Assembly: GCA_019638595.1 (NCBI GenBank)
Contig: JAHBTJ010000007.1
Coordinates: forward strand, 229,674 to 293,673
Direction of reading: 5' to 3'
Source of the DNA: Chitinophagaceae bacterium
Lineage (GTDB): Bacteria; Bacteroidota; Bacteroidia; Chitinophagales; Chitinophagaceae
Length of the DNA stretch: 64,000 nt
The notes below the pieces were generated by a model. That model was not told where the DNA came from. It ran no database searches and saw only the letters and a list, made by a program, of their open reading frames with translations. A program made the translations under genes and the position numbers. Every line of letters starts with the position of its first letter. Within the stretch, counting starts at the first letter, position 1. This document shows, piece by piece, positions 1,469-14,662 of this stretch.

Positions 1469-2431
1469 CTAATGCTTTCTGTCTGTGGTGTAATTTACCA
1501 ATTCTTCTAATGCGTCGCGGGTGTCCGAGGGGGGGAATTCGTGCAATAAGGCCAGGGCTTTATCGCGGTATTCTGTCATTTTTTTTATTCCATATTCAAT
1601 ACCGCCAGATTGTCTTACCTGTTCAATCACATAATTTACTTTGGCTTTTATCCTGTTCTGGTTTTTAAGAATATAAATGAGCTCCCTGCGCTTGCTTCCC
1701 TCTATGTGATTTAAAGTATATATGAGCGGAAGGGTCAGCTTTTTTTCCTTAATGTCGTTGCCGGTGGGTTTACCAACGGTATCTGTACCGTAATCAAAAA
1801 GATCATCTTTTATTTGAAATGCTATACCTGTATATTCTCCGAACTGCCTGAACTTTTCCGCTGTTTCATCGTTCTGGCATGCCGACCAGGCGCCTGCGGA
1901 ACAGGCAGAAGCCAGCAGGGAGGCTGTTTTGGTTTGTATGATCTCGAAATAAATATTTTCATCAAGGTTTAAGCCCCTGGCCTTTTCTATCTGCAAAAGC
2001 TCTCCCTCGCTCATTTTGCGTACTGCGTCCGATAAAATATGCAGGATCCTGTAATCTCCTCCGTTGAGGGACAACAACAATCCCTTACTGAGCAAATAGT
2101 CCCCTACTAATACCGAAACCTTCGATTTCCAGAGGGCATAAGCAGAAAAAAAACCTCTTCTTTCGTACGATTCATCTACCACATCGTCGTGTACCAGGCT
2201 GGCGGTGTGCAACAATTCCACCAATGAAGCGGCCCGGTAGGTAGATTCATTGATTTCACCCGCCAGCTTGGCAGAAAGCAATACGAACATGGGGCGCAAT
2301 TGTTTACCCTTACGTCTAACAATATACTGCATAATCCTGTCGAGCAGGGGAATATTGCTTTTAACCGATTTTTTAAATGCGGTTTCAAAGTAATCCAGTT
2401 CAGTTGCTATGATCTTCTTTGCTGTGTTCAT
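1469..2431 (-). CDS. ispB: Polyprenyl diphosphate synthase (IspB-like)
   Basis: GKQLRP, first Asp-rich motif ELLHTASLVHDDVVD, RRG, second motif GIAFQIKDDLFD. Confidence 0.9.
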   Translation of the reverse strand: MNTAKKIIATELDYFETAFKKSVKSNIPLLDRIMQYIVRRKGKQLRPMFVLLSAKLAGEINESTYRAASLVELLHTASLVHDDVVDESYERRGFFSAYALWKSKVSVLVGDYLLSKGLLLSLNGGDYRILHILSDAVRKMSEGELLQIEKARGLNLDENIYFEIIQTKTASLLASACSAGAWSACQNDETAEKFRQFGEYTGIAFQIKDDLFDYGTDTVGKPTGNDIKEKKLTLPLIYTLNHIEGSKRRELIYILKNQNRIKAKVNYVIEQVRQSGGIEYGIKKMTEYRDKALALLHEFPPSDTRDALEELVNYTTDRKH

Positions 2432-4409: not shown

Positions 4410-5213
4410 ATGAGATTTATAAAATACTTTGTTTTACTGGTTGGTGTTGTTTTCACCTTTTCGTCATGCTCCAAGTTTTCTAAAGTAATGAAAAGCAAGG
4501 ACTACGAGTATAAGCTAAAGATGGCTGACCAGTATTTTGTGAAAAAGAAATATCGTTTTGCACAACAGTTGTACGAAGATCTTTTCCCGGTGTACAAAGG
4601 ATCCAATCGTTTTGAGGATATACATTACAAGTTTGCATATTGCGCATATTACCTGAAGGATTATTTAAGTGCCGAGAATTTGTTTAAAAGCTTTCTTGAA
4701 TACTTTCCCAATAGCCCGAAAGCCGAAGAGGTGGACTTCATGCATGCTTTCTGTTATTTTAAGCAATCACCCCGCCCGGAGCTGGATCAAACGAATACAA
4801 TTAAAGCCATGGGGCAAATGCAAACTTTTATTAATACCCACCCGGGCTCGGAGCGTAATAAGGAAGCCCAGGACATTATTTCGCAGTGCTATAGTAAAAT
4901 GATTACCAAAGATTATAAAAACGCGGAATTGTATTATAATCTTGGACAATACCGTGCAGCAGCAATATCGTTTGCAACCCTGCTGAACTCCTATCCCGAC
5001 GCTCCGAACGCAGATGAATTTAAGCTTTGGGTGGTTCGCTCATATTACAAATTTGCTAACATGAGTGTACTGGAAAAGCAAACCGAACGTTATAACCAGG
5101 TAATTGAGGAAGTGCAGGATTTTCAGGATCGCTTCCCTGAAAGCAAATTGCTGAAAGATGCGGAGCAATACTTAACTTTGTCACAGAATAATTTAAAAAC
5201 TATTACGCAATGA
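4410..5213 (+). CDS. bamD: Outer membrane protein assembly lipoprotein BamD
   Basis: Lipobox FSSC, TPR-like helices (YLSAENLFKSFLEYFPNSPKAEE); typical Bacteroidota bamD-rpoZ-coaBC order. Confidence 0.92.
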   Translation: MRFIKYFVLLVGVVFTFSSCSKFSKVMKSKDYEYKLKMADQYFVKKKYRFAQQLYEDLFPVYKGSNRFEDIHYKFAYCAYYLKDYLSAENLFKSFLEYFPNSPKAEEVDFMHAFCYFKQSPRPELDQTNTIKAMGQMQTFINTHPGSERNKEAQDIISQCYSKMITKDYKNAELYYNLGQYRAAAISFATLLNSYPDAPNADEFKLWVVRSYYKFANMSVLEKQTERYNQVIEEVQDFQDRFPESKLLKDAEQYLTLSQNNLKTITQ

Positions 5214-5554
5214 GCAGATTAAGGAAACAATGGGGTAGCAATACTACCGCAAATGTGGTTGAAACTAAAAATGTTGCTGATATTAAGCGGAAAACCGGCA
5301 ATTTGTACGAGTCGATCGCTATTATTGGTAAAAGGGCTAACCAAATTAATATTGCGCTGAAAGAAGAGTTGCATAATAAACTGGAAGAATTTGCCAGCCA
5401 TACCGATAGCCTGGAGGAAATTCATGAAAACAAGGAGCAGATTGAAATTTCCAAGGCATATGAAAAAATGCCCAATCCTGCATTATTGGCCACCCAGGAG
5501 TTCTTCGACGATAAAATTTATTATCGTAAGAACGATGATGATCTGTTTAGTTAA
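5210..5554 (+). CDS. rpoZ: RNA polymerase omega subunit
   Basis: GNLYESIAIIGKRANQI...ENKEQIEISKAYEKMPNP, Bacteroidota omega pattern; ATGA overlap with bamD. Confidence 0.9.
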   Translation: MSRLRKQWGSNTTANVVETKNVADIKRKTGNLYESIAIIGKRANQINIALKEELHNKLEEFASHTDSLEEIHENKEQIEISKAYEKMPNPALLATQEFFDDKIYYRKNDDDLFS

Positions 5555-5599
5555 AATTTATACCATTAAACATATTTAATTCAATGCGGCAATTAAAAC

Positions 5600-6826
5600 A
5601 TGCCGCTTTTTGTATTTTTAGGAATGATGTTAAAAGGTAAAAAGATTTTAGTAGGGATTACCGGCAGTATAGCGGCTTATAAAGCTGCAACGCTGGTACG
5701 CTTTCTTATAAAAGAAGGGGCGGAAGTTAAAGTGATCATGACGCCGGCTGCTAAAGATTTTATTACTCCACTTACCTTATCAACCCTGTCAAAATATCCC
5801 GTATTAACAGATATATTTAAGGAGGATGAATGGGCGAATCATGTTATGCTGGGGCGGTGGGCGGATGTATTGGTTGTTGCGCCGCTAAGCTGCAATACAC
5901 TGGCAAAAATGGCTTCCGGCTTATGCGATAATCTTTTACTCAGCGTGTATCTTTCCGCAACCTGTCCTGTAATACTGGCGCCGGCAATGGATGAAGATAT
6001 GTGGAAGCATCCCGCCACACAACATAACATTAAACAGGTTCAGCAATTTGGTAACCGGGTTATACCTGTAGAGAGCGGAGAGCTTGCAAGCGGACTGATT
6101 GGAGAAGGAAGAATGGCGGAACCTGAGCACATCGGGAACTATATTATTGATTTTTTTTCAAAGCAGCCTGGCCCATTGGCAGGTAAAAAAGCCCTGGTAA
6201 CGGCAGGACCTACTTATGAGCATATTGATCCTGTCCGTTTTATCGGCAATCATTCCAGCGGGAAAATGGGGATAGCTATAGCCAATGCTTTATATAAACA
6301 AGGCGCAGAAGTTACGCTGGTATTAGGCCCTGTTCCCGATAATAGTCTTTTAAAAGGCATTGAAGTGGTACATGTTCAATCGGCCCGGGAAATGTATGAG
6401 GCTTGTCAAAAGGTGTTTCCACAAACCAATATAACCATAATGGCTGCGGCTGTAGCCGATTATACCCCCGCTACATTTGTAAATGAAAAAATAAAGAAGA
6501 GTGAAGGTAACTGGTTGCTTGAATTAACAAAAACGCAGGATATATTAAAAGACCTGGGCGGCAAAAAGCGGGATGAGCAATTATTGATAGGATTTGCGCT
6601 TGAAACCAATAATGAAAAGGCAAATGCGTTAACCAAGCTGAAAAGCAAGAATGCCGATATGATTGTGCTGAACTCTTTAAATGATAAGGAAGCCGGTTTT
6701 GGAAAGGATACCAATAAGGTGACCATTTTTGATAAACGGGGCGGGGTAGCAGCGTTTGAAGCAAAGCCAAAAGATGCCGTGGCCAACGATATTGTTAACT
6801 ATTTAATTGAGTATGCAAATGCGTAG
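5600..6826 (+). CDS. coaBC: Bifunctional phosphopantothenoylcysteine decarboxylase/ligase (start may be ~5624-5627)
   Basis: GITGSIAAYK, PAMDEDMW, TAGPTYEHIDPVRFIGNHSSGKMG, AAAVADY, GFALET. Confidence 0.97.
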   Translation: MPLFVFLGMMLKGKKILVGITGSIAAYKAATLVRFLIKEGAEVKVIMTPAAKDFITPLTLSTLSKYPVLTDIFKEDEWANHVMLGRWADVLVVAPLSCNTLAKMASGLCDNLLLSVYLSATCPVILAPAMDEDMWKHPATQHNIKQVQQFGNRVIPVESGELASGLIGEGRMAEPEHIGNYIIDFFSKQPGPLAGKKALVTAGPTYEHIDPVRFIGNHSSGKMGIAIANALYKQGAEVTLVLGPVPDNSLLKGIEVVHVQSAREMYEACQKVFPQTNITIMAAAVADYTPATFVNEKIKKSEGNWLLELTKTQDILKDLGGKKRDEQLLIGFALETNNEKANALTKLKSKNADMIVLNSLNDKEAGFGKDTNKVTIFDKRGGVAAFEAKPKDAVANDIVNYLIEYANA

Positions 6827-7736
6827 GATCGTATGTTTGGTGGGCGCCTGTATGTGCATTCAATACGCGTTGGCGCAGGAGCTGAATGCAAAGGTATCCG
6901 TGGTTGCTGCCCAGGTTAGCAGTTCTGTAGATAAAAAGGTTTTTCAAACATTGCAGACAACGCTTACGAATTTTTTAAATAATCGTAAATGGACAAAGGA
7001 TCCGTACCAGCAGCAGGAAAAGATTACCTGTAATTTTTTGCTGAACCTTACGCAGGATGCTGATCCGAATGTGTATAAAGCAATGCTTACCATACAGGCC
7101 GGCAGACCGGTGTACAACAGCAACTATATATCTCCGTTGGTGAATTTCCAGGATAACGATGTTACTTTTAAGTACGTTGAATTTCAACAGATAGATTTTA
7201 ATGAAAGCAATATAAGCGGTTCCGACCCCCAGGCATCCAATCTTACAGCCGTGCTGGCGTATTATGTATACCTGATATTGGGGCTCGATTATGATTCATT
7301 TTCCCCACGTGGCGGCGACCAGTATTTTAAGAGCGCTCAAAATATTGTGGTAAATGCGCCGGATGGCAGAAATATAACAGGCTGGAAAGCCTTTGACGGA
7401 CAAAGGAACAGGTATTGGCTGGCCGAGAATTTTACCAATAGTAAGTACACCTTATTGCACGACGCCTATTATACGTATTATCATCTTGGGCTGGATAAAA
7501 TGTATGAAGATGAAAATGAAGGACGGCAGCAGGTTTTAAATAGCCTGAACGCTTTAAACACGCTCAGTACCGATAATCGGAACTTAATGGGATTGTATTT
7601 TTTCTTTTTAGGCAAAAGCGATGAGCTTATTAAAATGTTTAAAAAAGCTCCTCCCCAGGACAGGGTAAAAGCTTCTGAATTATTGCAAAGGCTGGATATT
7701 TCAAAAGCGGGCGACTATAAGCAGGAATTAAAATGA
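6816..7736 (+). CDS. DUF4835 family protein (PorD-like)
   Basis: Signal peptide then AQELNAKVSV; YVYLILGLDYDSFS and NRYWLAEN; usual position after coaBC. Confidence 0.8.
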   Translation, partial: QMRRIVCLVGACMCIQYALAQELNAKVSVVAAQVSSSVDKKVFQTLQTTLTNFLNNRKWTKDPYQQQEKITCNFLLNLTQDADPNVYKAMLTIQAGRPVYNSNYISPLVNFQDNDVTFKYVEFQQIDFNESNISGSDPQASNLTAVLAYYVYLILGLDYDSFSPRGGDQYFKSAQNIVVNAPDGRNITGWKAFDGQRNRYWLAENFTNSKYTLLHDAYYTYYHLGLDKMYEDENEGRQQVLNSLNALNTLSTDNRNLMGLYFFFLGKSDELIKMFKKAPPQDRVKASELLQRLDISKAGDYKQELK

Positions 7737-8086
7737 AATACATTGGTTTTATAATAGCGGTGGTGCTAGCTGTGTCATGCTCTTCGGGAAAAAGGATTCC
7801 TGACGGTATCATTAAGCCCGATGCTATGGGCAATATCCTTTTTGACGCCGGTATGGCCGAGGAGTTCGTTATGTCGTATGTAGCAAAGGATTCCGCTAAA
7901 AATAAAGACGTGGAATTGCAGAAAGAGTACCAGAAAATTTATTTGCTGTATAATGTAACAGAAGAGCAGTTTAAGAAAAGCTATACTTTTTATAAGGCTC
8001 ATACCGATATTTTTAAAGTATTGATGGACTCCTTAAATGCGCGGGCCCAAAGGCGCAGAACAGAAATGTACAGGATGCCGGGCTGA
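7733..8086 (+). CDS. DUF4296-like lipoprotein
   Basis: Lipobox LAVSC, PDGIIKPDAM, YNVTEEQFKKSYTFY. Confidence 0.75.
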   Translation: MKYIGFIIAVVLAVSCSSGKRIPDGIIKPDAMGNILFDAGMAEEFVMSYVAKDSAKNKDVELQKEYQKIYLLYNVTEEQFKKSYTFYKAHTDIFKVLMDSLNARAQRRRTEMYRMPG

Positions 8087-8159
8087 GCATCTTTTTCCGG
8101 GTATAAGCTACCTTTTCAATATTCATGGTTTTGTATCTTCGCCTGAAAACGGTTATGGC

Positions 8160-8915
8160 ATGTTTACAAGTAAGGACGATTTAAAGCTGAACTATGGAAT
8201 TGATATGGAGATAGGTAAGTTTTTTGTTGACCGGAAAATTCCCGAAAATAATCTTTACTGGAAGGGGCGGTATCTTTATATCACACCCATGCCGGGTTAT
8301 CTTTTTATACCGCTTTATACTGACCTGCAGTGTAGGCTGGGGTTGCCTAAAAGCCGGTTATTGAGCGAAGGGCATATTGTGTTCATGGAAAAGATCATGC
8401 ATAGTATTGCAAAGCAGGAATTTGACAGTATTCCTATGGATGAGCATGTTAAGGAATGCATAGAAATAACAAAGCCTGTTTGCAGAAACAACCTGTTATT
8501 AGATGAGCTTGCATCCTGTTTTTTAGAAGGGCAGGTTGTACAAAAAGGAATATCGTTCGGTACGCCTTTAAGAGCTTTGAACAGGGTAGACAGCTATTTG
8601 TTCACGCTTTGTTATTTTGATGTTGATGACGAACAAAAGAAGCATCTGATAGATGCCTGGCATGCGTGCATGACCTTTTACCTGATCACTGACGACCTGG
8701 ATGATATTAAAAAAGATTTTGAAGAGAAGGAGGATAACGCCATTATTGAAGCCGGGCTGGATGAAAATGGCGCGAAGCTCATTGAATCTTACATGCAACA
8801 GAGTTATAATACCATGAATAAAATAAACCCGGTTTTTGCCAACAGGATGGATTATAGCTGGCAACAGATAAACGTGTGGCACAGCATTCAGCAATACCTG
8901 AAATCAGTCAATTAA
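8160..8915 (+). CDS. Hypothetical protein with isoprenoid synthase-like Asp-rich motif (LITDDLDD)
   Basis: 251 aa from ATG 8160, which follows a near-consensus -7 box TATCTTCG. ITDDLDD has the IxDDLxD pattern of IKDDLFD in the IspB-like protein of this window. Mainly helical character. Confidence 0.7.
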   Translation: MFTSKDDLKLNYGIDMEIGKFFVDRKIPENNLYWKGRYLYITPMPGYLFIPLYTDLQCRLGLPKSRLLSEGHIVFMEKIMHSIAKQEFDSIPMDEHVKECIEITKPVCRNNLLLDELASCFLEGQVVQKGISFGTPLRALNRVDSYLFTLCYFDVDDEQKKHLIDAWHACMTFYLITDDLDDIKKDFEEKEDNAIIEAGLDENGAKLIESYMQQSYNTMNKINPVFANRMDYSWQQINVWHSIQQYLKSVN

Positions 8916-9554
8916 ATTATTGCGAACAGAGAAAAAAACAAGCCCTGCAGTATTTTTTACATTGAACCGTTCCATCAGCCTGTCTTTAATAGCTTCTACC
9001 GTGCGCGGGCTGATATCCATTTTCTGCGCTATTTCAGTAGCTGTAAATTCCATGCAAAGCAACCGTAACACTTCCCTTTCTTTGTCGCTCACTACAATTT
9101 CACTGGTTAAAGACGGTACGATTTTAGTACGTGCATGCGATTTTTTAAGCAACACCTTGTTTACAAAGTTATTCAGATAATAGCCTTTAGACACTACTTC
9201 CACAATGGCCTTCTTGATTTCTGCGGGGTCGGCGCTTTTCAGCAGGTAGCCATTGGCTCCGTTTTCCATAAGATGCGAAACGAAGCGTTCATCTTCATAC
9301 ATGGTTAGCACTATTACATAAATATTGGGATATTCTTTGCTGATTACTTTGGTTGCCTCAATGCCATCTTTTACGGGCATCCGGAGGTCCATTAAAACAA
9401 CGTTCGGGTCTGCTTCGGCAAGTCCATCTAATAATTGCTGACCGTTTTCCGCTTCCAGTACAAACTTTATATTGGTAAAGGAACGTAGCGACAGTATAAC
9501 TCCTTTGCGGAATATTTGATGGTCGTCTGCAATGGCAACTTTAATAATGCTCAT
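8904..9554 (-). CDS. NarL/LuxR-family response regulator
   Basis: REC (ADDH, LMDLRMP, GYLLK) plus LuxR HTH (ISPRTVEAIKDRL). Confidence 0.95.
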   Translation of the reverse strand: MSIIKVAIADDHQIFRKGVILSLRSFTNIKFVLEAENGQQLLDGLAEADPNVVLMDLRMPVKDGIEATKVISKEYPNIYVIVLTMYEDERFVSHLMENGANGYLLKSADPAEIKKAIVEVVSKGYYLNNFVNKVLLKKSHARTKIVPSLTSEIVVSDKEREVLRLLCMEFTATEIAQKMDISPRTVEAIKDRLMERFNVKNTAGLVFFSVRNNLID

Positions 9555-9586
9555 ACCGGGTGTTTTGGTTTAATATTGGGATAGAT

Positions 9587-10426
9587 TTATGTAATCATTT
9601 CATGATCCTCAACAGGGATTTCCATAGTTACTTTATAATACGTTTGCGACAGGTCTTTTTCAAACTCTATCCGGGCTTGTAATACTTTAACCCTGCTCTG
9701 GATGTTTTTTAGTCCAAGACCTAATGCGCTTTTATTCAACCTGTCAAAATCTGCCTGGGTAATGCCTCTGCCATCGTGATGAAGCCTGATAAAAAAACGG
9801 TCTTCATTATAATTTTGAGTTACATGAATAAAGCTTGAGCTGCTGTGTTTTAAAATGTTGTTTACCAGCTCCTGTATAACGCGAAAAATAAGCAATTCTT
9901 GTTCGGGTCTTAACCTTTGCCTGTAGTCGTGAAAACGGCAGCTTGCGTTCACTACCCCCGACCCGCTTATTTTTTGAAACAGGTCGTTCACTGCAGATTC
10001 CAGCCCAAAATTTTTAAGCGTAGGCGGCATGAGGCTATGAGAGATGTTACGTATGAGCTGAATGGTATCATCTATAATTTGTTTGGCGTTATAAATGCTT
10101 TGCAATTGCGTGCTTATATCCTGGTTAACAAGGTTTTCATTCAGGTATAGCCTGGCTGTTGCCAGTAACGGCCCCGCATCATCGTGTAAATCGGCGGCTA
10201 TACGCTGCCGTTCTTCCTCCTGCCATCTTATAGAGGCATTCAGCAGTATTTTTTGCTGTTCCTCCTCCATTTCCTGTAACTGCATTTGATAGCGTATCAC
10301 TCTCCTTTGGTGAAAAACGATAAAAATAACAAGCCCTACTGCAAGGGCAAGCATTCCCATCGTACCAAAAAAAAGAACACTGGATACGCTTTGATTTGAA
10401 ATTTGCAATAGCACCATAGCTTTCAT
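9587..10426 (-). CDS. HisKA_3 histidine kinase with a single N-terminal TM helix
   Basis: EEERQRIAADLHD (H box), QELVNNILKH (N box), DGRG, GLGLKNI; one hydrophobic segment and no extracytoplasmic sensor domain. Confidence 0.93.
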   Translation of the reverse strand: MKAMVLLQISNQSVSSVLFFGTMGMLALAVGLVIFIVFHQRRVIRYQMQLQEMEEEQQKILLNASIRWQEEERQRIAADLHDDAGPLLATARLYLNENLVNQDISTQLQSIYNAKQIIDDTIQLIRNISHSLMPPTLKNFGLESAVNDLFQKISGSGVVNASCRFHDYRQRLRPEQELLIFRVIQELVNNILKHSSSSFIHVTQNYNEDRFFIRLHHDGRGITQADFDRLNKSALGLGLKNIQSRVKVLQARIEFEKDLSQTYYKVTMEIPVEDHEMIT

Positions 10427-11115
10427 CGTGGGTTGAAGGATGTCGGGGTTCGATAGGGTTTTTTTGTATACTTTAATTTGCTTTCTTTATCTTTTGTTAG
10501 CATTGCGAGAGAAAAAAACACATTCTTAATAATATAAAGCGGGTCGTGTATCATGTCGTACAGATCTAAAAACTCGCTTTCATTCATATAGTTCCTTGCA
10601 TATATAAAAGGAAAGAATGTTCCTGCCGAAAAGATTATAATGCCCACTACCACCCAAAATACGGGAGAAGAGAACAGGTATATTTCAGTGGGGTTCTTCA
10701 TTCTTTCAAAGAGGTAATAAATGCTAAATAGCAGGAAAACAAAATAGGTAAGCCCTGTGAGATTGGAATTGAAAAAATCATGAGAGGAAGTAATGATAGA
10801 ATATATAAGGTAAGGGCTCACTAATAAAGTAATAAAAAGAATTACTTTTTGCGACCGCGGATTTCCTATTATTTTATAAAACAATAGGGAAAGAGCCGCA
10901 AACTCAACAATTGTACTGATGCTGACAATGAAATAATAATGCTCTTCTCTTAATTGCCTGTTTGACAGGACGAAGAAATTGAAAAATAGAAAATAAAGGG
11001 ATAGGAAAAAAACAACCCTTAACCCTATATTTTTTCTTGACTTGCAGAAAAAGATATACAGGATTAAGGGCAGTAAATCAGATAAATAAGCGATATTTCG
11101 TAAAATAGTGCCTAT
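10423..11115 (-). CDS. 7-TM membrane protein, probable sensor partner of the kinase (start uncertain)
   Basis: ORF track starts at TTG 10884, but the frame stays open to 11130 and encodes three more TM helices (IAYLSDLLPLILYIFF; LRVVFFLSLYFLFFNFFVL; YYFIVSISTIVEFAALSLL). No in-frame ATG/GTG/TTG upstream. Stop overlaps kinase start (ATGA). Confidence 0.8.
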   Translation of the reverse strand: MGTILRNIAYLSDLLPLILYIFFCKSRKNIGLRVVFFLSLYFLFFNFFVLSNRQLREEHYYFIVSISTIVEFAALSLLFYKIIGNPRSQKVILFITLLVSPYLIYSIITSSHDFFNSNLTGLTYFVFLLFSIYYLFERMKNPTEIYLFSSPVFWVVVGIIIFSAGTFFPFIYARNYMNESEFLDLYDMIHDPLYIIKNVFFSLAMLTKDKESKLKYTKKPYRTPTSFNPR

Positions 11116-11144
11116 AGTTGAGTTGTTTCTTCAAATATAGGCAC
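11108..11144 (-). terminator. Hairpin between small-protein gene and 7-TM gene (attenuator or stabiliser)
   Basis: On the mRNA: GUGCCUAUAUUUGA-AGAAACAAC-UCAACUAUAGGCAC (13/14 bp stem), followed by UAUUUU. Confidence 0.6.
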
Positions 11145-11156
11145 TTAGCCGGTAAA

Positions 11157-11528
11157 TTAAAAACTCCATGACCACCAGCCTGGCCTGGGCGAAAAATAGT
11201 TTGCTACAATACCCGGTACTTTATCCAGTTCTCCATTGTCGTTAACATATGTATATTCGAGAATAGCCTTCCCGGTGCTGTCTACGCCAATGAACACGTA
11301 AGTTTGGGCTCCCCTGTCATTAAGGGCTTTGTATATGTTAATTCCTACGCAATCAGGCTGGCTAAGCAGCTTTTCAAGGATGTTCCTCCCTACGAAATGG
11401 CAACTGTTTTCGCCATGTAAGTCATAAAAATCTTTAATCATTTTGGCTCCTTTTTCGAAGCCGATGTGCTGCCCAACATTGGCATGAGGAAGCTGAGGGG
11501 TTTGCACAAGTACATCTTTCTTTGTCAT
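11157..11528 (-). CDS. Small protein (123 aa) with Trp-rich C-terminal tail, first gene of the 7TM-HK-RR operon
   Basis: ATG with A-rich leader; ends IVANYFSPRPGWWSWSF; no Sec signal peptide. Confidence 0.8.
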   Translation of the reverse strand: MTKKDVLVQTPQLPHANVGQHIGFEKGAKMIKDFYDLHGENSCHFVGRNILEKLLSQPDCVGINIYKALNDRGAQTYVFIGVDSTGKAILEYTYVNDNGELDKVPGIVANYFSPRPGWWSWSF

Positions 11529-12289
11529 AGTTGTAAGTTTTGTGGTTTTTTAGAAAAAGTTAAGGATTGATTTATGTCAAAATTGAATGATAAAGCGGGG
11601 ATGTACAATAGGGTGGCTTATGAAATTTTTGAATAATATCAACAAAAACCTTTGTGGGCCTGCGTTTTATATACAAAATGAGCAAATGGATTAAAAAAAA
11701 TTAAAGTATAATTACTTTTGTAAATTAGTATTTTTACGATATATTTAACTGTAGTTATCCTATATTTTGAAAAATGGCTGGCTGTGGAGTGCTAAATGCT
11801 ACATTTTAAGCCGCAGGAGTTTATTGATAAAGGCACGCATTAACGAGGTACGTACGGGAATGGATTTTTGAAACGGGCGCAAAGTAATCAAATAATTATT
11901 TACCGGCTAAATACCGGAAAAAGTGAAAGTTGACCGACATTGGATTTTGCGTTCGATTTTTCACAGATATTGAAAATAAATTATTGGACGGTTTCAGGGA
12001 TGCTGGATTTAAATTTGAGGTTGCCGAATCCCCGCCAATCAACTTCAAAGCAAAAATACCTAACGGGGTATGGTTCTGCAATAGCAGATTTGCGCTATTT
12101 GCCAGCTTCAGTAAATACGGATTATTGTTTGTTATAGCTATGTAAAAGAGTAGGGTTACTTTAAAAATGCAAGTATTTTAACTAAGTATAAATACTAGGC
12201 TATAATTCGGTTGATTTGCGAAGTTTGTAAGATAAATTATAAATATAGTATCAACCGCAAACAGGTGTAACCTCTTATCATTAAAATCC

Positions 12290-12955
12290 ATGTCAACAAC
12301 CACAAACTACCAGATTAAGGTTTCCATTGCCGATGACCACAAAATTTTCAGGGATGGAATTAAAATGGCAATGGGAGGAAAAGAATATCTAAAGATCATT
12401 TGGGAGGCCGAGAACGGGAAAGACCTCATGCATAAAATGAAAATCAAGCTTCCCGATGTTTTGTTGATGGACATCAGAATGCCGGAAATGGACGGCGTGA
12501 ACGCTATTTCGCTTATCAGGAAAGAGTATGAACAGATAAAGATCATAGTACTTACCATGTACGATGACCAGGAGATGATTTCACGCATGATGGAAATGGG
12601 CGCCAATGCTTACTTAACCAAAACTACCGATCCCGAAGAAATATACAATGCCATTTTAACCTGCATGAACGACGATTTCTATTTTAACGATCTCGTAAAT
12701 AAAGCGGTGCTGTTAAAGCTCCAGCATAAAAAACAGGTAAAGCAGTATTACCCCAATCCCGTTAAGTTCAACGAAAAGGAGTTAAAGATACTCAAGCTCA
12801 TATCGGAGGATAAAACTACCGAAGAAATTTCCAAAGAAGTGTACCTGAGCCCGCGTACCATAGAAACCGTGCGCCAGAATATGAAAACGAAAGTGGGAGC
12901 TAAAACAATTGCGGGACTGGTAATGTATGGTATGCGTAATAAGCTGATTAACTGA
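12290..12955 (+). CDS. NarL/LuxR-family response regulator
   Basis: ADDH, LMDIRMP, AYLTK, LSPRTIET. Confidence 0.95.
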   Translation: MSTTTNYQIKVSIADDHKIFRDGIKMAMGGKEYLKIIWEAENGKDLMHKMKIKLPDVLLMDIRMPEMDGVNAISLIRKEYEQIKIIVLTMYDDQEMISRMMEMGANAYLTKTTDPEEIYNAILTCMNDDFYFNDLVNKAVLLKLQHKKQVKQYYPNPVKFNEKELKILKLISEDKTTEEISKEVYLSPRTIETVRQNMKTKVGAKTIAGLVMYGMRNKLIN

Positions 12956-13104
12956 TATTTTTTAGGAAATTAGGAATAGTTGTTGCAACAACGTAAATTT
13001 ATTTTTTAAAGCATTTCAGGTAATTGTACGATGGTAATTTTACAAGGATAACTGTAAAATTTATACAAAAGAACGTACGATGAACTACTATAGAAAAAAT
13101 AAGG

Positions 13105-13779
13105 ATGAAAATTCAGGAACCAGGCTCTTTTGTAAAAGTAATTGTTGCTGATGACCACGTTTTGTTCAGGGCCGGCGTAAAAACCGCCCTCAGCATGAAA
13201 AAAGATGTGCGGTTGATTGGCGAAGCAGATAATGGTCAGCAATTGTTGCATTTGCTTAAGCATTTGCAACCCGATGTTATTTTACTGGATATCCAGATGC
13301 CGATCATGGACGGCATTACTACATTGCCTGAAATCAAAAAGCTTTATCCCGATATCAGGATCATTATGCTTACCATGCACAACGACCATTCCATGATCTC
13401 AAAACTGATGGAGCTGGGGGCCAATGCCTATCTTACCAAAAATTCAGATTCAGAGGTGATTTATGAAGCCATCAAAACCTGCTATCTTAACGAATATTAT
13501 TTTAACGACCTCACTAATAAAGCGCTGCTGGACGGACTGCGAACCAAACGCCATAATGATTCGTTTGGACCTGCCGAAGTAAAATTAAGCGAAAAGGAAA
13601 AACATATTCTTAAGCTGATGTGCGATGAAAAAAGCACTAAGGAAATTGCGGATATGGTAGATTTAAGCCCCCGCACGGTAGAAGCTATCCGCGATAAGCT
13701 CAAATCTAAAACCGGTGTTAAGTCAATGGCCGGGTTGGTTATGTACGCGGTTAAGTCAGGTATCATTGATAATAAGTAA
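13105..13779 (+). CDS. NarL/LuxR-family response regulator
   Basis: ADDH, LLDIQMP, AYLTK, LSPRTVEAIR. Confidence 0.95.
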   Translation: MKIQEPGSFVKVIVADDHVLFRAGVKTALSMKKDVRLIGEADNGQQLLHLLKHLQPDVILLDIQMPIMDGITTLPEIKKLYPDIRIIMLTMHNDHSMISKLMELGANAYLTKNSDSEVIYEAIKTCYLNEYYFNDLTNKALLDGLRTKRHNDSFGPAEVKLSEKEKHILKLMCDEKSTKEIADMVDLSPRTVEAIRDKLKSKTGVKSMAGLVMYAVKSGIIDNK

Positions 13780-13819
13780 TTTTACTTTTTATCAATACCT
13801 CTATTTAATCTTGCAGTAT

Positions 13820-14662
13820 ATGCCTGGTGGTTACTTTGTACATAATGGTCAACTCTTCAGGGAAGGTAAGGCGGTCATATCTCCCGATAATCGTTCTTTC
13901 AGGTACGGAGATGGCTTGTTTGAAACCATGCGCGTGGTAAAAGGGAATATTATTCTTAAGCAATTTCACTTTGAACGGTTATTGCATGGAATGAAGCTGC
14001 TGCAGTTTGAAACCCCTGATTTTTTTACCGCATCTCACCTTGAAGCCGATATTCTTTCCCTTTGTAAAAAAAACAGGATAGAAGATGCTGTAATAAGACT
14101 TGTGGTTTTTAGAAGCGATGGTGGGTTGTACGACCTGGAAGACATGCGCCCCAATTATATTATCCAGAGCATAGCCGTTCAAAAAATGTCCCGCCTTAAG
14201 GAACAGGGAGGTATTGTTATAGGCGTATATGACGATGCTACAAAAGCCTGCAATTCCTTTTCCGAAATTAAATCGAACAACTTTTTGCCATATACAATGG
14301 CTGCAATGTATGCCCGGCGTAAAAAGCTCGACGATTGTATTATACTCAACCAATATGGGCGGGTGGCCGATGCCACCATTGCCAATGTTTTTATTGTGAA
14401 AAATAAAGAGATTTATACGCCTCCTTTAAGCGAAGGCTGTGTAGCGGGAGTATTGCGCAGGTTTTTGCTTCAAAAGCTGCCATTACATGGGTTTGGCATA
14501 CAGGAGAAGCCTGTAACCGTAGATGACCTTTCGGCGGCAGATGAAATTTTTCTCACCAACGCGGTGCGGGGTGTCAGGTTTGTAAAAAAGTTCAGGGATA
14601 AAAGCTATGCTTCGGAAATTTCGCACGAGGTAGCGCAGGTTTGGCTTGGTAAGCAGGCATAA
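13820..14662 (+). CDS. Class IV PLP aminotransferase (4-amino-4-deoxychorismate lyase / BCAT-like)
   Basis: NRSFRYGDGLFETMR, IKSNN, ATIANVF, GCVAGVLR, EIFLTNAVRG. Start moved to ATG 13820. Confidence 0.9.
   Translation: MPGGYFVHNGQLFREGKAVISPDNRSFRYGDGLFETMRVVKGNIILKQFHFERLLHGMKLLQFETPDFFTASHLEADILSLCKKNRIEDAVIRLVVFRSDGGLYDLEDMRPNYIIQSIAVQKMSRLKEQGGIVIGVYDDATKACNSFSEIKSNNFLPYTMAAMYARRKKLDDCIILNQYGRVADATIANVFIVKNKEIYTPPLSEGCVAGVLRRFLLQKLPLHGFGIQEKPVTVDDLSAADEIFLTNAVRGVRFVKKFRDKSYASEISHEVAQVWLGKQA

What the first reader, a model, noticed from the sequence alone, without database searches (positions are those of the whole stretch)
8160..13779. Candidate ComQXPA-like prenylated-peptide signalling system in a Bacteroidota genome
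Seen: one minus-strand operon encodes a 123-aa protein, a 7-TM protein, a one-TM HisKA_3 kinase and a NarL/LuxR regulator, with the 7-TM and kinase genes coupled by an ATGA overlap. An isoprenoid-synthase-like gene abuts it convergently (12-bp overlap), and two more NarL regulators lie divergently. The small protein ends PGWWSWSF, with Trp121 third from the C-terminus. Known: Bacillus ComX is prenylated by ComQ (a DDxxD enzyme) on a Trp near the C-terminus (third from the end in strains 168 and RO-E-2), sensed by ComP (multi-TM HisKA_3 kinase) and relayed to ComA (NarL family). Inference: all four roles are present here, with the ComP sensor split off as its own gene. I know of no description of this in Bacteroidota.
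Basis: partly seen in the sequence, partly recalled or inferred. Interest (0 to 1): 0.88.

Follow-up and report, generated by a model that had tools for sequence, protein, structure and literature searches.

The report
New four-gene Bacteroidota signalling module
A small protein with a tryptophan-rich tail, a seven-helix membrane protein, a sensor-less histidine kinase and a LuxR-type regulator form a widely conserved, undescribed signalling module in Bacteroidota. The neighbouring "prenyl-synthase-like" gene is only a chance neighbour, so the ComX-pheromone analogy does not hold as stated.

Summary
All the genes, overlaps and the PGWWSWSF tail are real. One correction: the 7-TM reading frame has no ATG/GTG/TTG before TM1 and most likely starts at a conserved ATA.

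The core of the finding is strongly conserved. In 78 Chitinophagaceae species loci the order is divergent NarL regulator, then small protein, 7-TM, HisKA_3 kinase and NarL regulator (kinase 70/70, divergent regulator 69/69).

The ComQ role fails. The DDxxD gene has no PF00348 match. It follows the module in only 17/53 loci and always travels with DUF4296/DUF4835 of a BamD–RpoZ–CoaBC cluster, including where the module is absent.

The small protein is not ComX-like. It is a conserved ~105-aa domain from an undescribed superfamily (769 representatives), which includes tandem-domain lipoproteins ending in CPxxC. These too are followed by 7-TM, kinase and regulator (32/36 metagenome loci with enough downstream sequence).

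Best reading: a new four-component two-component system with a tail-docking accessory protein. A released Trp-peptide signal is not excluded (about 0.12).

The parts
11157..11528 (-). Accessory protein ('DOM'), 123 aa: conserved ~105-aa domain of an undescribed superfamily plus a C-terminal tail; no signal peptide
   Evidence: ORF. No Pfam or NCBIfam match. 34 close homologues conserved along the whole length. 769 representatives at E<=1e-3. No N-terminal hydrophobic stretch in 65 orthologues. Soil and rhizosphere metatranscriptome contigs cover the orthologue in L020.
11160..11195 (-). Tail FSPRPGWWSWSF (residues 112-123): linker plus Trp-rich C-terminus
   Evidence: Trp frequency is 9.4% in tails against 0.11% in domains. 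230/252 relatives have a Trp in the last 8 residues. pLDDT<50 for residues 113-123 in the model.
11132..11139 (-). TATATTTG = TAnnTTTG, the Bacteroidota -7 promoter box, between the DOM stop and the 7-TM start
   Evidence: Present in all 66 orthologous loci analysed, in varying reading frames, 66-78 nt before the TM1 Pro codon in nearly all. Its identity as a -7 box rests on established knowledge of Bacteroidota sigma-A promoters; no transcription start was mapped.
10423..11115 (-). 7-TM membrane protein (230 aa) of an undescribed family, probable ATA start; stop overlaps the kinase start (ATGA)
   Evidence: Open frame and conserved N-terminus. Codon -15 from the TM1 Pro is ATA in 33, ATC 5, ATT 5, TTG 4, GTG 3 of 66 loci. 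Hydropathy. No Pfam or PDB match.
9587..10426 (-). Histidine kinase: ~16-aa N-terminus, one TM helix, coiled coil, HisKA_3, HATPase_c; no sensor domain
   Evidence: Pfam and NCBIfam. Present downstream in 70/70 loci. dN/dS about 0.01.
8904..9554 (-). NarL/LuxR-family response regulator (Response_reg + GerE)
   Evidence: Downstream of the kinase in 58/64 loci.
11703..11745 (.). Conserved block with two GTA-N4-TAC palindromes about 175-210 nt upstream of the DOM start: candidate regulator-binding sites
   Evidence: Invariant columns in alignment A4. GTAWWWWTAC occurs 7 times in the 64 kb (2.07 expected), and 5 of the 7 lie in 11706-13785, upstream of DOM (two sites), both divergent regulators and the aminotransferase gene.
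12290..12955 (+). Divergent NarL/LuxR regulator 1, an invariable partner of the module in Chitinophagaceae
   Evidence: Present divergently upstream in 69/69 loci.
13105..13779 (+). Divergent NarL/LuxR regulator 2, a frequent partner
   Evidence: Present in most Agriterribacter- and Segetibacter-type loci.
8160..8915 (+). DDxxD gene (251 aa, all-alpha): adjacent but judged NOT part of the module
   Evidence: Synteny. No PF00348 match. Weak fold resemblance to isoprenyl diphosphate synthases.

Best explanation
The locus is one instance of a conserved four-gene signal-transduction module of Bacteroidota. It comprises an accessory protein built from a previously undescribed ~105-aa domain (DOM), a 7-TM membrane protein of an undescribed family, a histidine kinase that has only one TM helix and no sensor domain, and a NarL/LuxR response regulator. 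In Chitinophagaceae one or two further NarL regulators are transcribed divergently.

Proposed mechanism:
1. The 7-TM protein is the membrane-embedded input element for the sensor-less kinase (inferred from architecture, gene overlap and universal adjacency).
2. DOM is a dedicated co-sensor or modulator of that complex (shown: obligate synteny and co-evolution with the 7-TM; inferred: physical contact).
3. In the branch found in this window, DOM has no signal peptide. It is tethered or docked from the cytoplasmic side through a flexible Pro/Gly/Thr-rich linker ending in an interfacial Trp motif. This stands in for the conserved Cys-containing tail, or the N-terminal lipid anchor, used by other branches (inferred).
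4. The phosphorylated regulator(s) act on GTA-N4-TAC palindromes upstream of DOM and of the regulator genes, giving feedback (inferred from site clustering).

The stimulus is unknown. The DDxxD gene is an unrelated neighbour belonging to a housekeeping cluster.
For: Module conservation:
- In 78 GTDB species loci: kinase 70/70, divergent regulator 69/69, downstream regulator 58/64.
- The order is kept at 30% DOM identity.
- It is also kept in the distant CPxxC and lipoprotein branches: L088, 32/36 metagenome loci with enough downstream sequence, and L169 next to T9SS/SprB genes.

The domain, not just the tail, is the conserved unit:
- Alignment A1.
- 769 representatives, many of them tandem two-domain proteins.

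The kinase lacks a sensor, and the 7-TM stop overlaps its start.

DOM and the 7-TM co-evolve beyond phylogeny. After removing kinase and regulator distances, the residual correlation is 0.31 (Mantel p=0.003), against -0.06 for DOM versus the flanking aminotransferase.

The tail is a flexible linker plus an interfacial Trp motif and is predicted disordered. There is no signal peptide. No protease, exporter or modifying enzyme is conserved in any neighbourhood. GTA-N4-TAC sites cluster in the module's promoters. Cytoplasm-facing parts of the 7-TM are somewhat more conserved than outward-facing parts.
Against: - No experiment or structure ties DOM to the 7-TM or the kinase. The DOM model is poor (pLDDT 62) and matches no known fold.
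- The same domain is predicted outside the cytoplasm (lipoproteins) in some branches and inside in others. That is awkward for a single fixed docking surface.
- A near-universal Trp 2-4 residues from the C-terminus on a variable tail, a fast-evolving receptor beside an almost frozen kinase, and one apparent allelic replacement of the 7-TM gene are also what a peptide-ligand/receptor pair would show.
- The co-evolution signal is modest.
Confidence: 0.5

Rival explanations
1. Peptide-signal model (a weakened form of the reader's idea). The DOM tail is cleaved after the conserved GIVADR-type junction and exported. It may be modified on Trp by an unlinked enzyme. It is then sensed from outside by the 7-TM/kinase pair, giving autoinducing-peptide signalling in Chitinophagaceae.
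For: - The tail is variable with a Trp in the last 8 residues in 91% of 252 relatives, most often 3rd or 4th from the end, as in ComX (ComX features in PMC4008528; StheX Trp second from the end).
- The 7-TM evolves about 3 times faster than the kinase (p-distance 0.67 against 0.23).
- L069/L070 are about 98% identical in the flanks but have 7-TM dS 1.1 against 0.10-0.24 in the flanking genes.
- ComX itself lacks a signal peptide and a known exporter (my own knowledge).
- The DOM gene appears in metatranscriptome contigs more often than the downstream genes.
Against: - No modifying enzyme, protease or exporter is syntenic in about 150 loci.
- The DDxxD gene is unlinked.
- The 'leader' would be a 105-aa folded domain that is better conserved than the tail, is duplicated in tandem, and occurs as lipoproteins without Trp tails in the same gene arrangement.
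- Close relatives keep nearly identical tails, so there is no pherotype-like jump.
- 7-TM dN/dS is 0.10-0.28, which is not positive selection.
- The outward loops of the 7-TM are short.
Confidence: 0.12
2. Output model. DOM is not part of sensing. It is the main regulated target or effector of the system, for example a membrane-associated stress protein (like LiaH or CpxP as induced products), and is kept next to the regulators for co-regulation.
For: - DOM has its own conserved promoter region with two GTA-N4-TAC palindromes.
- A separate -7 box precedes the 7-TM gene, suggesting separate transcription units.
- DOM transcripts are seen in metatranscriptomes.
Against: - DOM-to-7-TM adjacency in the same order is kept across very distant branches (kinase only 29% identical in L088). 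That is unusual for a mere target gene.
- DOM co-evolves with the 7-TM rather than with a neutral neighbour.
- CpxP-type induced products are often also modulators, so this rival partly merges with the best explanation.
Confidence: 0.2
3. Full ComQXPA analogue. The adjacent DDxxD protein prenylates Trp121 of the small protein, and the product is the secreted pheromone.
For: - The DDxxD family has an invariant DDxxD...D...N motif.
- Its confident model resembles isoprenyl diphosphate synthases best.
- Both families appear largely confined to Chitinophagaceae, by the source names.
Against: - The gene is adjacent in 17/53 loci only, and always as part of DUF4835-DUF4296-DDxxD.
- It keeps that context without the module (L005, L006) or sits after Fur (L004).
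- It is convergent, not co-oriented.
- It has no PF00348 or PDB isoprenyl-synthase sequence match.
- Fold matches are weak (E>=0.17, TM about 0.45).
- Its single Asp-rich motif lies at residues 178-182 of 251, where isoprenyl synthases have the second motif rather than the catalytic first one (position comparison from my own knowledge).
Confidence: 0.04

Closest known systems
ComQXPA quorum sensing of Bacillus (PMC4008528) and the ComQ-family pair StheQ/StheX (bioRxiv 10.64898/2026.08.29.745113)
   Same: HisKA_3 + HATPase_c kinase with a multi-TM input part, a NarL-family regulator, and a small partner protein without a signal peptide whose variable C-terminus carries a Trp 2-4 residues from the end. 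The membrane input part evolves much faster than the kinase core and regulator.
   Different: - No PF00348 enzyme in the operon.
- The partner is a conserved 105-aa domain protein, not a 52-73-aa PF05952 propeptide.
- The TM sensor is a separate, unrelated 7-TM protein.
- Tails are stable among close relatives.
- Other branches of the same module use CPxxC tails or lipoprotein forms.
- The host is a diderm Bacteroidota, whereas the 2014 census found ComQXPA only in Firmicutes.
Two-component systems with accessory proteins: LiaFSR/VraTSR, GraXSR, UhpABC
   Same: The kinase lacks its own sensor domain (intramembrane-sensing type, HisKA_3 as in LiaS and UhpB; NCBIfam partial hits). It depends on separately encoded membrane and/or cytoplasmic cofactors encoded in the same locus. 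LiaF is an accessory regulator (PMC3543457) and GraX a cofactor (PMC3128592), both seen. UhpC as a separate membrane receptor is my own knowledge.
   Different: Neither DOM nor the 7-TM is homologous to LiaF, GraX, UhpC or any Pfam family. Two accessory proteins are always paired. The Trp-tail or CPxxC-tail feature has no counterpart.
7TMR-DISM / multi-TM sensor kinases, including DesK-type membrane-state sensors
   Same: A 7-helix bundle with short loops upstream of a kinase suggests sensing within or at the membrane. The predicted topology is N-out, C-in, with positive residues inside.
   Different: The 7-TM part is a separate polypeptide here and does not match PF07695 (E=0.15 in 1 of 18 members). 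There is no extracellular DISM domain.
CpxP/CpxAR-type feedback modulators
   Same: A small non-membrane protein encoded beside the system, apparently under the system's own regulators (GTA-N4-TAC sites), which could modulate the kinase.
   Different: CpxP is periplasmic and all-helical. DOM is alpha/beta, lacks a signal peptide in this branch and is unrelated in sequence.

Membership tests
ComQXPA quorum-sensing locus | ComQ: a PF00348 isoprenyl transferase (286-309 aa) encoded directly upstream of comX on the same strand (PMC4008528) | tested here: not met
   The DDxxD protein has no Pfam hit even at E<=10 and no isoprenyl synthase in a PDB profile search. It is convergent and syntenic in only 17/53 loci, always with DUF4296. 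The only PF00348 gene (1469-2431) sits in the housekeeping BamD-cluster synteny.
ComQXPA quorum-sensing locus | ComX: a 52-73-aa, extremely variable precursor (PF05952) | tested here: not met
   123 aa. No PF05952 hit at E<=10. Residues 1-110 are a conserved domain (mean column identity 65%) with 769 distant relatives.
ComQXPA quorum-sensing locus | A Trp within the last 5-10 residues of the precursor | tested here: met
   Trp118, 119 and 121 of 123 in the window protein. 230/252 relatives have a Trp in the last 8 residues.
ComQXPA quorum-sensing locus | ComP: a membrane kinase with PF07730 + PF02518 and multiple TM helices. ComA: a NarL-type regulator | tested here: met
   PF07730, PF02518, Response_reg and GerE are all above their cut-offs. 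The multi-TM part is a separate gene with no detectable homology to anything known, so only the architecture is matched, not ancestry.
ComQXPA quorum-sensing locus | Isoprenylated Trp on a secreted C-terminal peptide that activates the kinase | not testable with these tools
   Needs LC-MS of supernatants or co-expression, plus reporter assays.
ComQXPA quorum-sensing locus | Strain-level polymorphism of signal, enzyme and sensor beside a conserved kinase core and regulator (pherotypes) | tested here: inconclusive
   The 7-TM diverges fast (p-distance 0.67 against 0.23; dN/dS 0.10-0.28 against about 0.01). One pair shows a replaced 7-TM allele. But tails are nearly identical among close relatives.
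Two-component system with accessory proteins (LiaFSR / UhpABC / GraXSR kind) | A kinase without its own sensor domain, with conserved co-located accessory genes | tested here: met
   The kinase has a ~16-aa N-terminus, 1 TM helix and then HisKA_3. The order DOM, 7-TM, kinase is conserved in about 150 loci. There is an ATGA overlap.
Two-component system with accessory proteins (LiaFSR / UhpABC / GraXSR kind) | The accessory proteins physically or functionally control kinase activity | not testable with these tools
   Only indirect evidence: DOM-7-TM residual co-evolution r=0.31, p=0.003.
7TMR-DISM_7TM (PF07695) | Sequence match to the 7TM model above its cut-off | tested here: not met
   12.4 bits against a cut-off of 29, E=0.15, in 1 of 18 members.
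trans-Isoprenyl diphosphate synthase / class I terpenoid synthase superfamily (for the DDxxD protein) | The all-alpha synthase fold with Asp-rich metal-binding motif(s) | tested here: inconclusive
   One invariant DDxxD (residues 178-182) plus D186 and N193. Model pLDDT 92. All top Foldseek hits are isoprenyl synthases, but with E 0.17-1 and TM 0.3-0.45. No sequence-level match.

The most novel reading that the evidence does not exclude
In Chitinophagaceae the Trp-bearing tail of the DOM protein is released as a peptide signal, possibly with a modified Trp made by an unlinked enzyme. The fast-evolving, occasionally swapped 7-TM receptor reads it and passes the signal to the frozen kinase and regulator core. 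This would be the first peptide-pheromone (ComX/Agr-like) cell-cell signalling system in Bacteroidota, one that evolved from an ancestral accessory-protein/receptor pair.
Probability: 0.12. Interest if true: 0.9.

Novelty: new variant of a known kind. Interest (0 to 1): 0.6.

Why it matters
Signal input to two-component systems in Bacteroidota is poorly understood. This work defines a recurrent four-gene architecture built from two protein families that have no Pfam, NCBIfam or PDB counterpart. It comprises an accessory domain protein, a separate 7-TM input protein, a sensor-less HisKA_3 kinase and a NarL regulator, and is present in hundreds of soil and freshwater lineages.

It offers a tractable case of how a kinase core can be kept almost invariant (dN/dS about 0.01) while its detachable input parts diversify. 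It also raises a sharply testable question: is the near-universal C-terminal Trp motif a membrane or receptor docking device, or a released signal? Cultured strains that carry the module exist (Agriterribacter humi YJ03, Terrimonas sp. NS-102, Pollutibacter soli JS81, Segetibacter koreensis DSM 18137).

Finally, it corrects an attractive but misleading gene-neighbourhood inference, namely that the DDxxD gene plays the ComQ role.

Tried and rejected
- ComQ role for the DDxxD gene: rejected on synteny and lack of a PF00348 match.
- Fold assignment for DOM: the AlphaFold model built from the shallow first alignment was poor (pLDDT 62), and the Foldseek search found nothing significant.
- Profile searches of DOM, the 7-TM and the DDxxD family against PDB sequences gave nothing informative.
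- Pfam and NCBIfam scans of distant DOM members gave no consistent family; there was a single borderline DUF6968 hit in one protein. No paper mentions DUF6968.
- 7TMR-DISM membership of the 7-TM: rejected.
- Read-through or frameshift fusion of DOM to the 7-TM as an explanation for the missing start codon: rejected. The frames differ between loci, and a promoter-like box intervenes.
- Rfam search of 8000-14000: no hit.
- RNA-seq for the window organism: only DNA runs exist. For A. humi-like sequence only sparse metatranscriptome contigs were available.
- Taxon names for distant DOM members: none were available.
- The first metagenome scan failed because the alignment was too diverse and was repeated with a subset.
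- Inside-versus-outside conservation of the 7-TM: only a slight excess of cytoplasmic conservation, not decisive.

Full report
**1. What is in the window**

ORF listing and domain scans confirm the following genes on the minus strand:
- a 123-aa ORF (11157-11528) ending PGWWSWSF;
- a membrane-protein frame ending at 10423;
- a 279-aa kinase (9587-10426) with one N-terminal TM helix, HisKA_3 (28.4 bits, cut-off 24) and HATPase_c (37.2, cut-off 26.4);
- a Response_reg + GerE regulator (8904-9554).

The kinase ATG overlaps the stop of the membrane gene (ATGA). Two further Response_reg + GerE regulators are divergent (12290-12955 and 13105-13779). A 251-aa ORF (8160-8915, +) with an invariant DDxxD overlaps the regulator's 3' end by 12 bp, in convergent orientation.

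There is one complication. The membrane frame has no ATG, GTG or TTG until codon 82. The upstream part nevertheless encodes three conserved TM helices in all orthologues.

**2.

A pattern scan of one genome per GTDB species gave 78 loci, all of Chitinophagaceae type (Agriterribacter, Terrimonas, Pollutibacter, Segetibacter, Parasegetibacter). tblastn mapping shows an invariant core:
- a divergent NarL regulator upstream, in 69/69 loci with enough sequence;
- then the small protein, the 7-TM frame and the kinase (70/70);
- then a regulator (58/64).

The order is kept even where the small protein is only 30% identical.

The DDxxD gene behaves differently. It lies within 2.5 kb after the regulator in 17/53 loci, always next to DUF4296 and DUF4835. 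35/53 loci have neither. Looked at from the DDxxD side (231 homologues), the gene follows DUF4835-DUF4296 of a BamD-RpoZ-CoaBC cluster in a Segetibacter genome. It does the same in a Chitinophagaceae genome whose small-protein gene lies on a different contig, and in another genome it follows Fur. The adjacency in the window therefore exists because the module happens to sit beside that housekeeping cluster.

The DDxxD protein has no Pfam or NCBIfam match. A PDB profile search finds no isoprenyl synthase. Its confident model (pLDDT 92) resembles isoprenyl diphosphate synthases only weakly (probability up to 0.96, but E>=0.17 and TM about 0.45). A genuine PF00348 synthase does lie at 1469-2431. 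It belongs to the same housekeeping synteny seen in loci without the module.

**3.

This prediction is borne out. I pooled the loci with the database homologues to obtain 252 unique single-domain relatives:
- 230 (91%) have a Trp in the last 8 residues.
- Trp makes up 9.4% of tail residues against 0.11% of domain residues.
- The last Trp is most often 3rd or 4th from the C-terminus.
- Tails run up to 33 residues (median 17), are rich in Gly, Pro, Thr, Ser and Asp, and vary in sequence. Examples are GWWSWSF, GWFDDVIK, PWWWPF and CPPYCG...GW.

**4. The small protein is not ComX-like**

Residues 1-110 are well conserved. An exhaustive profile search finds 769 representatives at 50% clustering. 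No Pfam, NCBIfam or PDB relative exists.

Many relatives are tandem two-domain proteins, often with lipoprotein signal peptides, and each domain ends in ...AD-x4-CPxxC. The commonest distant form is a ~103-aa protein without a signal peptide, ending PCPPxC...NPLNS. The Segetibacter-type proteins keep CPPYC and add a Trp end. The Agriterribacter type, which includes the window, has lost the cysteines.

The distant forms sit in the same arrangement:
- L088: lipoprotein DOM, then a 215-aa membrane protein homologous to the window's 7-TM (E=2e-8), then a one-TM HisKA_3 kinase (29% identical), then a NarL regulator.
- Of the 80 metagenome loci, 36 have at least 2.3 kb downstream. Of those, 32 carry the kinase and 31 carry both kinase and regulator.
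- L169 sits beside T9SS and SprB genes, which marks it as Bacteroidota.

The domain itself is therefore an obligate partner of a 7-TM/kinase/regulator unit across Bacteroidota. It is not a leader peptide.

**5. Evolutionary behaviour**

Mean protein p-distances among 56 loci are: DOM 0.49, 7-TM 0.67, kinase 0.23, regulators 0.21-0.22. dN/dS is about 0.01 for the kinase and regulators, 0.03-0.11 for DOM and 0.10-0.28 for the 7-TM.

After regressing out kinase and regulator distances, DOM and 7-TM distances remain correlated (r=0.31, Mantel p=0.003). DOM against the equally fast flanking aminotransferase shows no such correlation (r=-0.06, p=0.68).

Two nearly identical loci, L069 and L070, are about 98% identical at the DNA level. 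They diverge to 62-88% exactly from the DOM tail through the 7-TM gene. There the synonymous divergence is 1.1, against 0.10-0.24 in the flanking genes. This looks like an allelic replacement or a co-existing strain polymorphism. Among close relatives, however, the tails themselves barely change, and there is no sign of positive selection.

**6. Regulation and expression hints**

A TAnnTTTG box precedes the 7-TM coding region in every one of the 66 orthologous loci analysed, in different reading frames. This motif is the Bacteroidota -7 promoter element by established knowledge. In the window it is TATATTTG at 11139-11132.

Fifteen codons before the conserved TM1 proline, the codon is ATA in 33 loci, ATC in 5, ATT in 5, TTG in 4 and GTG in 3 (of 66). 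This position is therefore the start codon, and in a large clade it has become ATA. In the window the ATA is at 11115-11113.

The 760-nt region between DOM and the divergent regulator contains conserved blocks. GTA-W4-TAC palindromes occur 7 times in the 64 kb (2.07 expected). Five of them lie within 11706-13785, upstream of DOM (two sites), both divergent regulators and the aminotransferase gene. They are candidate regulator-binding sites and imply feedback control.

Soil and rhizosphere metatranscriptome contigs cover the DOM gene of an A. humi-like organism, including read-through into the start of the 7-TM gene.

**7. Interpretation**

What is shown: a conserved four-gene module, two undescribed protein families, a near-universal Trp tail in one branch, DOM/7-TM co-evolution, and no link to the DDxxD gene.

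What is inferred: the 7-TM protein supplies the missing input domain of the kinase. DOM is a co-sensor or modulator. In this branch it is held at or docked to the cytoplasmic face by a flexible linker and an interfacial Trp motif. This stands in for the Cys-containing tail or the lipid anchor of other branches.

Precedents for kinases that depend on separately encoded cofactors are LiaF (PMC3543457) and GraX (PMC3128592), both, and UhpC (my own knowledge).

The peptide-signal reading explains the Trp position and the receptor's variability equally well, and the data cannot exclude it. It lacks any syntenic maturation or export gene, and it is hard to reconcile with the domain's conservation, tandem duplication and lipoprotein forms. 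I give it about 0.12, and about 0.04 to the full ComQ-dependent version.

**8. Comparison with known systems and novelty**

By the criteria of the ComQXPA census (PMC4008528), the locus fails on two counts: a PF00348 enzyme on the same strand, and a 52-73-aa PF05952 precursor. It meets the other two: a near-terminal Trp, and a HisKA_3 kinase with a NarL regulator. That census found ComQXPA only in Firmicutes. A 2026 preprint extends ComQ-family enzymes to Sphaerobacter.

I found no paper describing this module. It is best classed as a new variant of the known kind 'two-component system with accessory proteins'.

Noticed in passing
window 11113-11115 (minus strand; 7-TM gene 10423-11115) and orthologues in L001-L084: The 7-TM gene appears to start with ATA. 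The codon 15 positions before the conserved TM1 proline is ATA in 33, ATC in 5 and ATT in 5 loci, but TTG or GTG in 7 loci of more distant clades (of 66). 40/66 loci have no in-frame ATG/GTG/TTG between the -7 box and TM1. Gene callers therefore truncate or miss this gene (products of 127-188 aa, or none).
   Followed up: yes
window 11918-12058 (minus strand): A conserved ~125-135-nt element lies between the divergent regulator and the DOM gene. It is preceded by a TAnnTTTG box, begins GAAGTTGATTGG, ends CAATCAACTTTC plus a T-run, and contains four TCCAAT repeats. It is found in more than 35 loci and sometimes twice per locus. A 13-bp closing stem shows a few G-U and compensatory changes, but the fold z-score is only -0.9. 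There is no Rfam match. It is a candidate small RNA or a complex operator.
   Followed up: partly
window 11706-11737, 12186-12195, 13034-13043, 13776-13785: GTA-W4-TAC palindromes cluster in the promoters of DOM, both divergent regulators and the class IV aminotransferase gene (5 of the 7 matches in 64 kb; 2.07 matches expected for the whole window). They are a candidate binding site for the NarL-type regulators.
   Followed up: partly
L069:6290-7180 versus L070 (same coordinates): Two loci about 98% identical elsewhere differ by 12-38% from the DOM tail through the 7-TM gene. dS is 1.1 there against 0.10-0.24 in the flanking genes. This suggests an allelic swap of the receptor gene or co-existing strain alleles collapsed by assembly.
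   Followed up: partly
window 1469-2431 (minus strand): A genuine PF00348 polyprenyl synthase (E=9e-64) lies 9 kb from the small gene. It is in the same place next to the OmpA/BamD cluster in loci that lack the module nearby (L005, L006), so it is probably the housekeeping long-chain prenyl diphosphate synthase and not a ComQ.
   Followed up: partly
L033, L035, L038, L085, L086 (between the two divergent regulators); L001, L085-L087 (after the downstream regulator): Some genomes carry a second, paralogous 7-TM + HisKA_3 kinase + NarL regulator set without a DOM gene. Some also carry an extra 7-TM paralogue (214-224 aa, normal ATG start) after the module's regulator. The 7-TM family is therefore a recurrent kinase partner in Chitinophagaceae.
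   Followed up: no
DOM superfamily proteins P0177-P0304; L088-L169: Outside the Trp-tail branch the domain ends in a conserved ...AD-x4-CPxxC motif, often followed by NPLNS or lying at the very C-terminus (CSGx). A nearly invariant His (HFFG) and Cys (QPxCxGI) lie within the domain. Together these could form a metal or redox site. The Agriterribacter-type proteins have lost the CPxxC.
   Followed up: no
L064, L069, L070, L074 (record titles): These MAG records are titled Methylophilus, Asaia, Rhizobium and Bosea, yet they carry typical Chitinophagaceae-type module loci. The bins are probably mislabelled or contaminated.
   Followed up: no
window 4410-8915: The gene string BamD(YfiO)-RpoZ-CoaBC-DUF4835-DUF4296-DDxxD is conserved across Chitinophagaceae. 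The DDxxD family (251 aa; invariant DDxxD, D186, N193; confident all-alpha model) is itself uncharacterised and may deserve study as a divergent isoprenoid-synthase-fold protein linked to envelope genes.
   Followed up: partly
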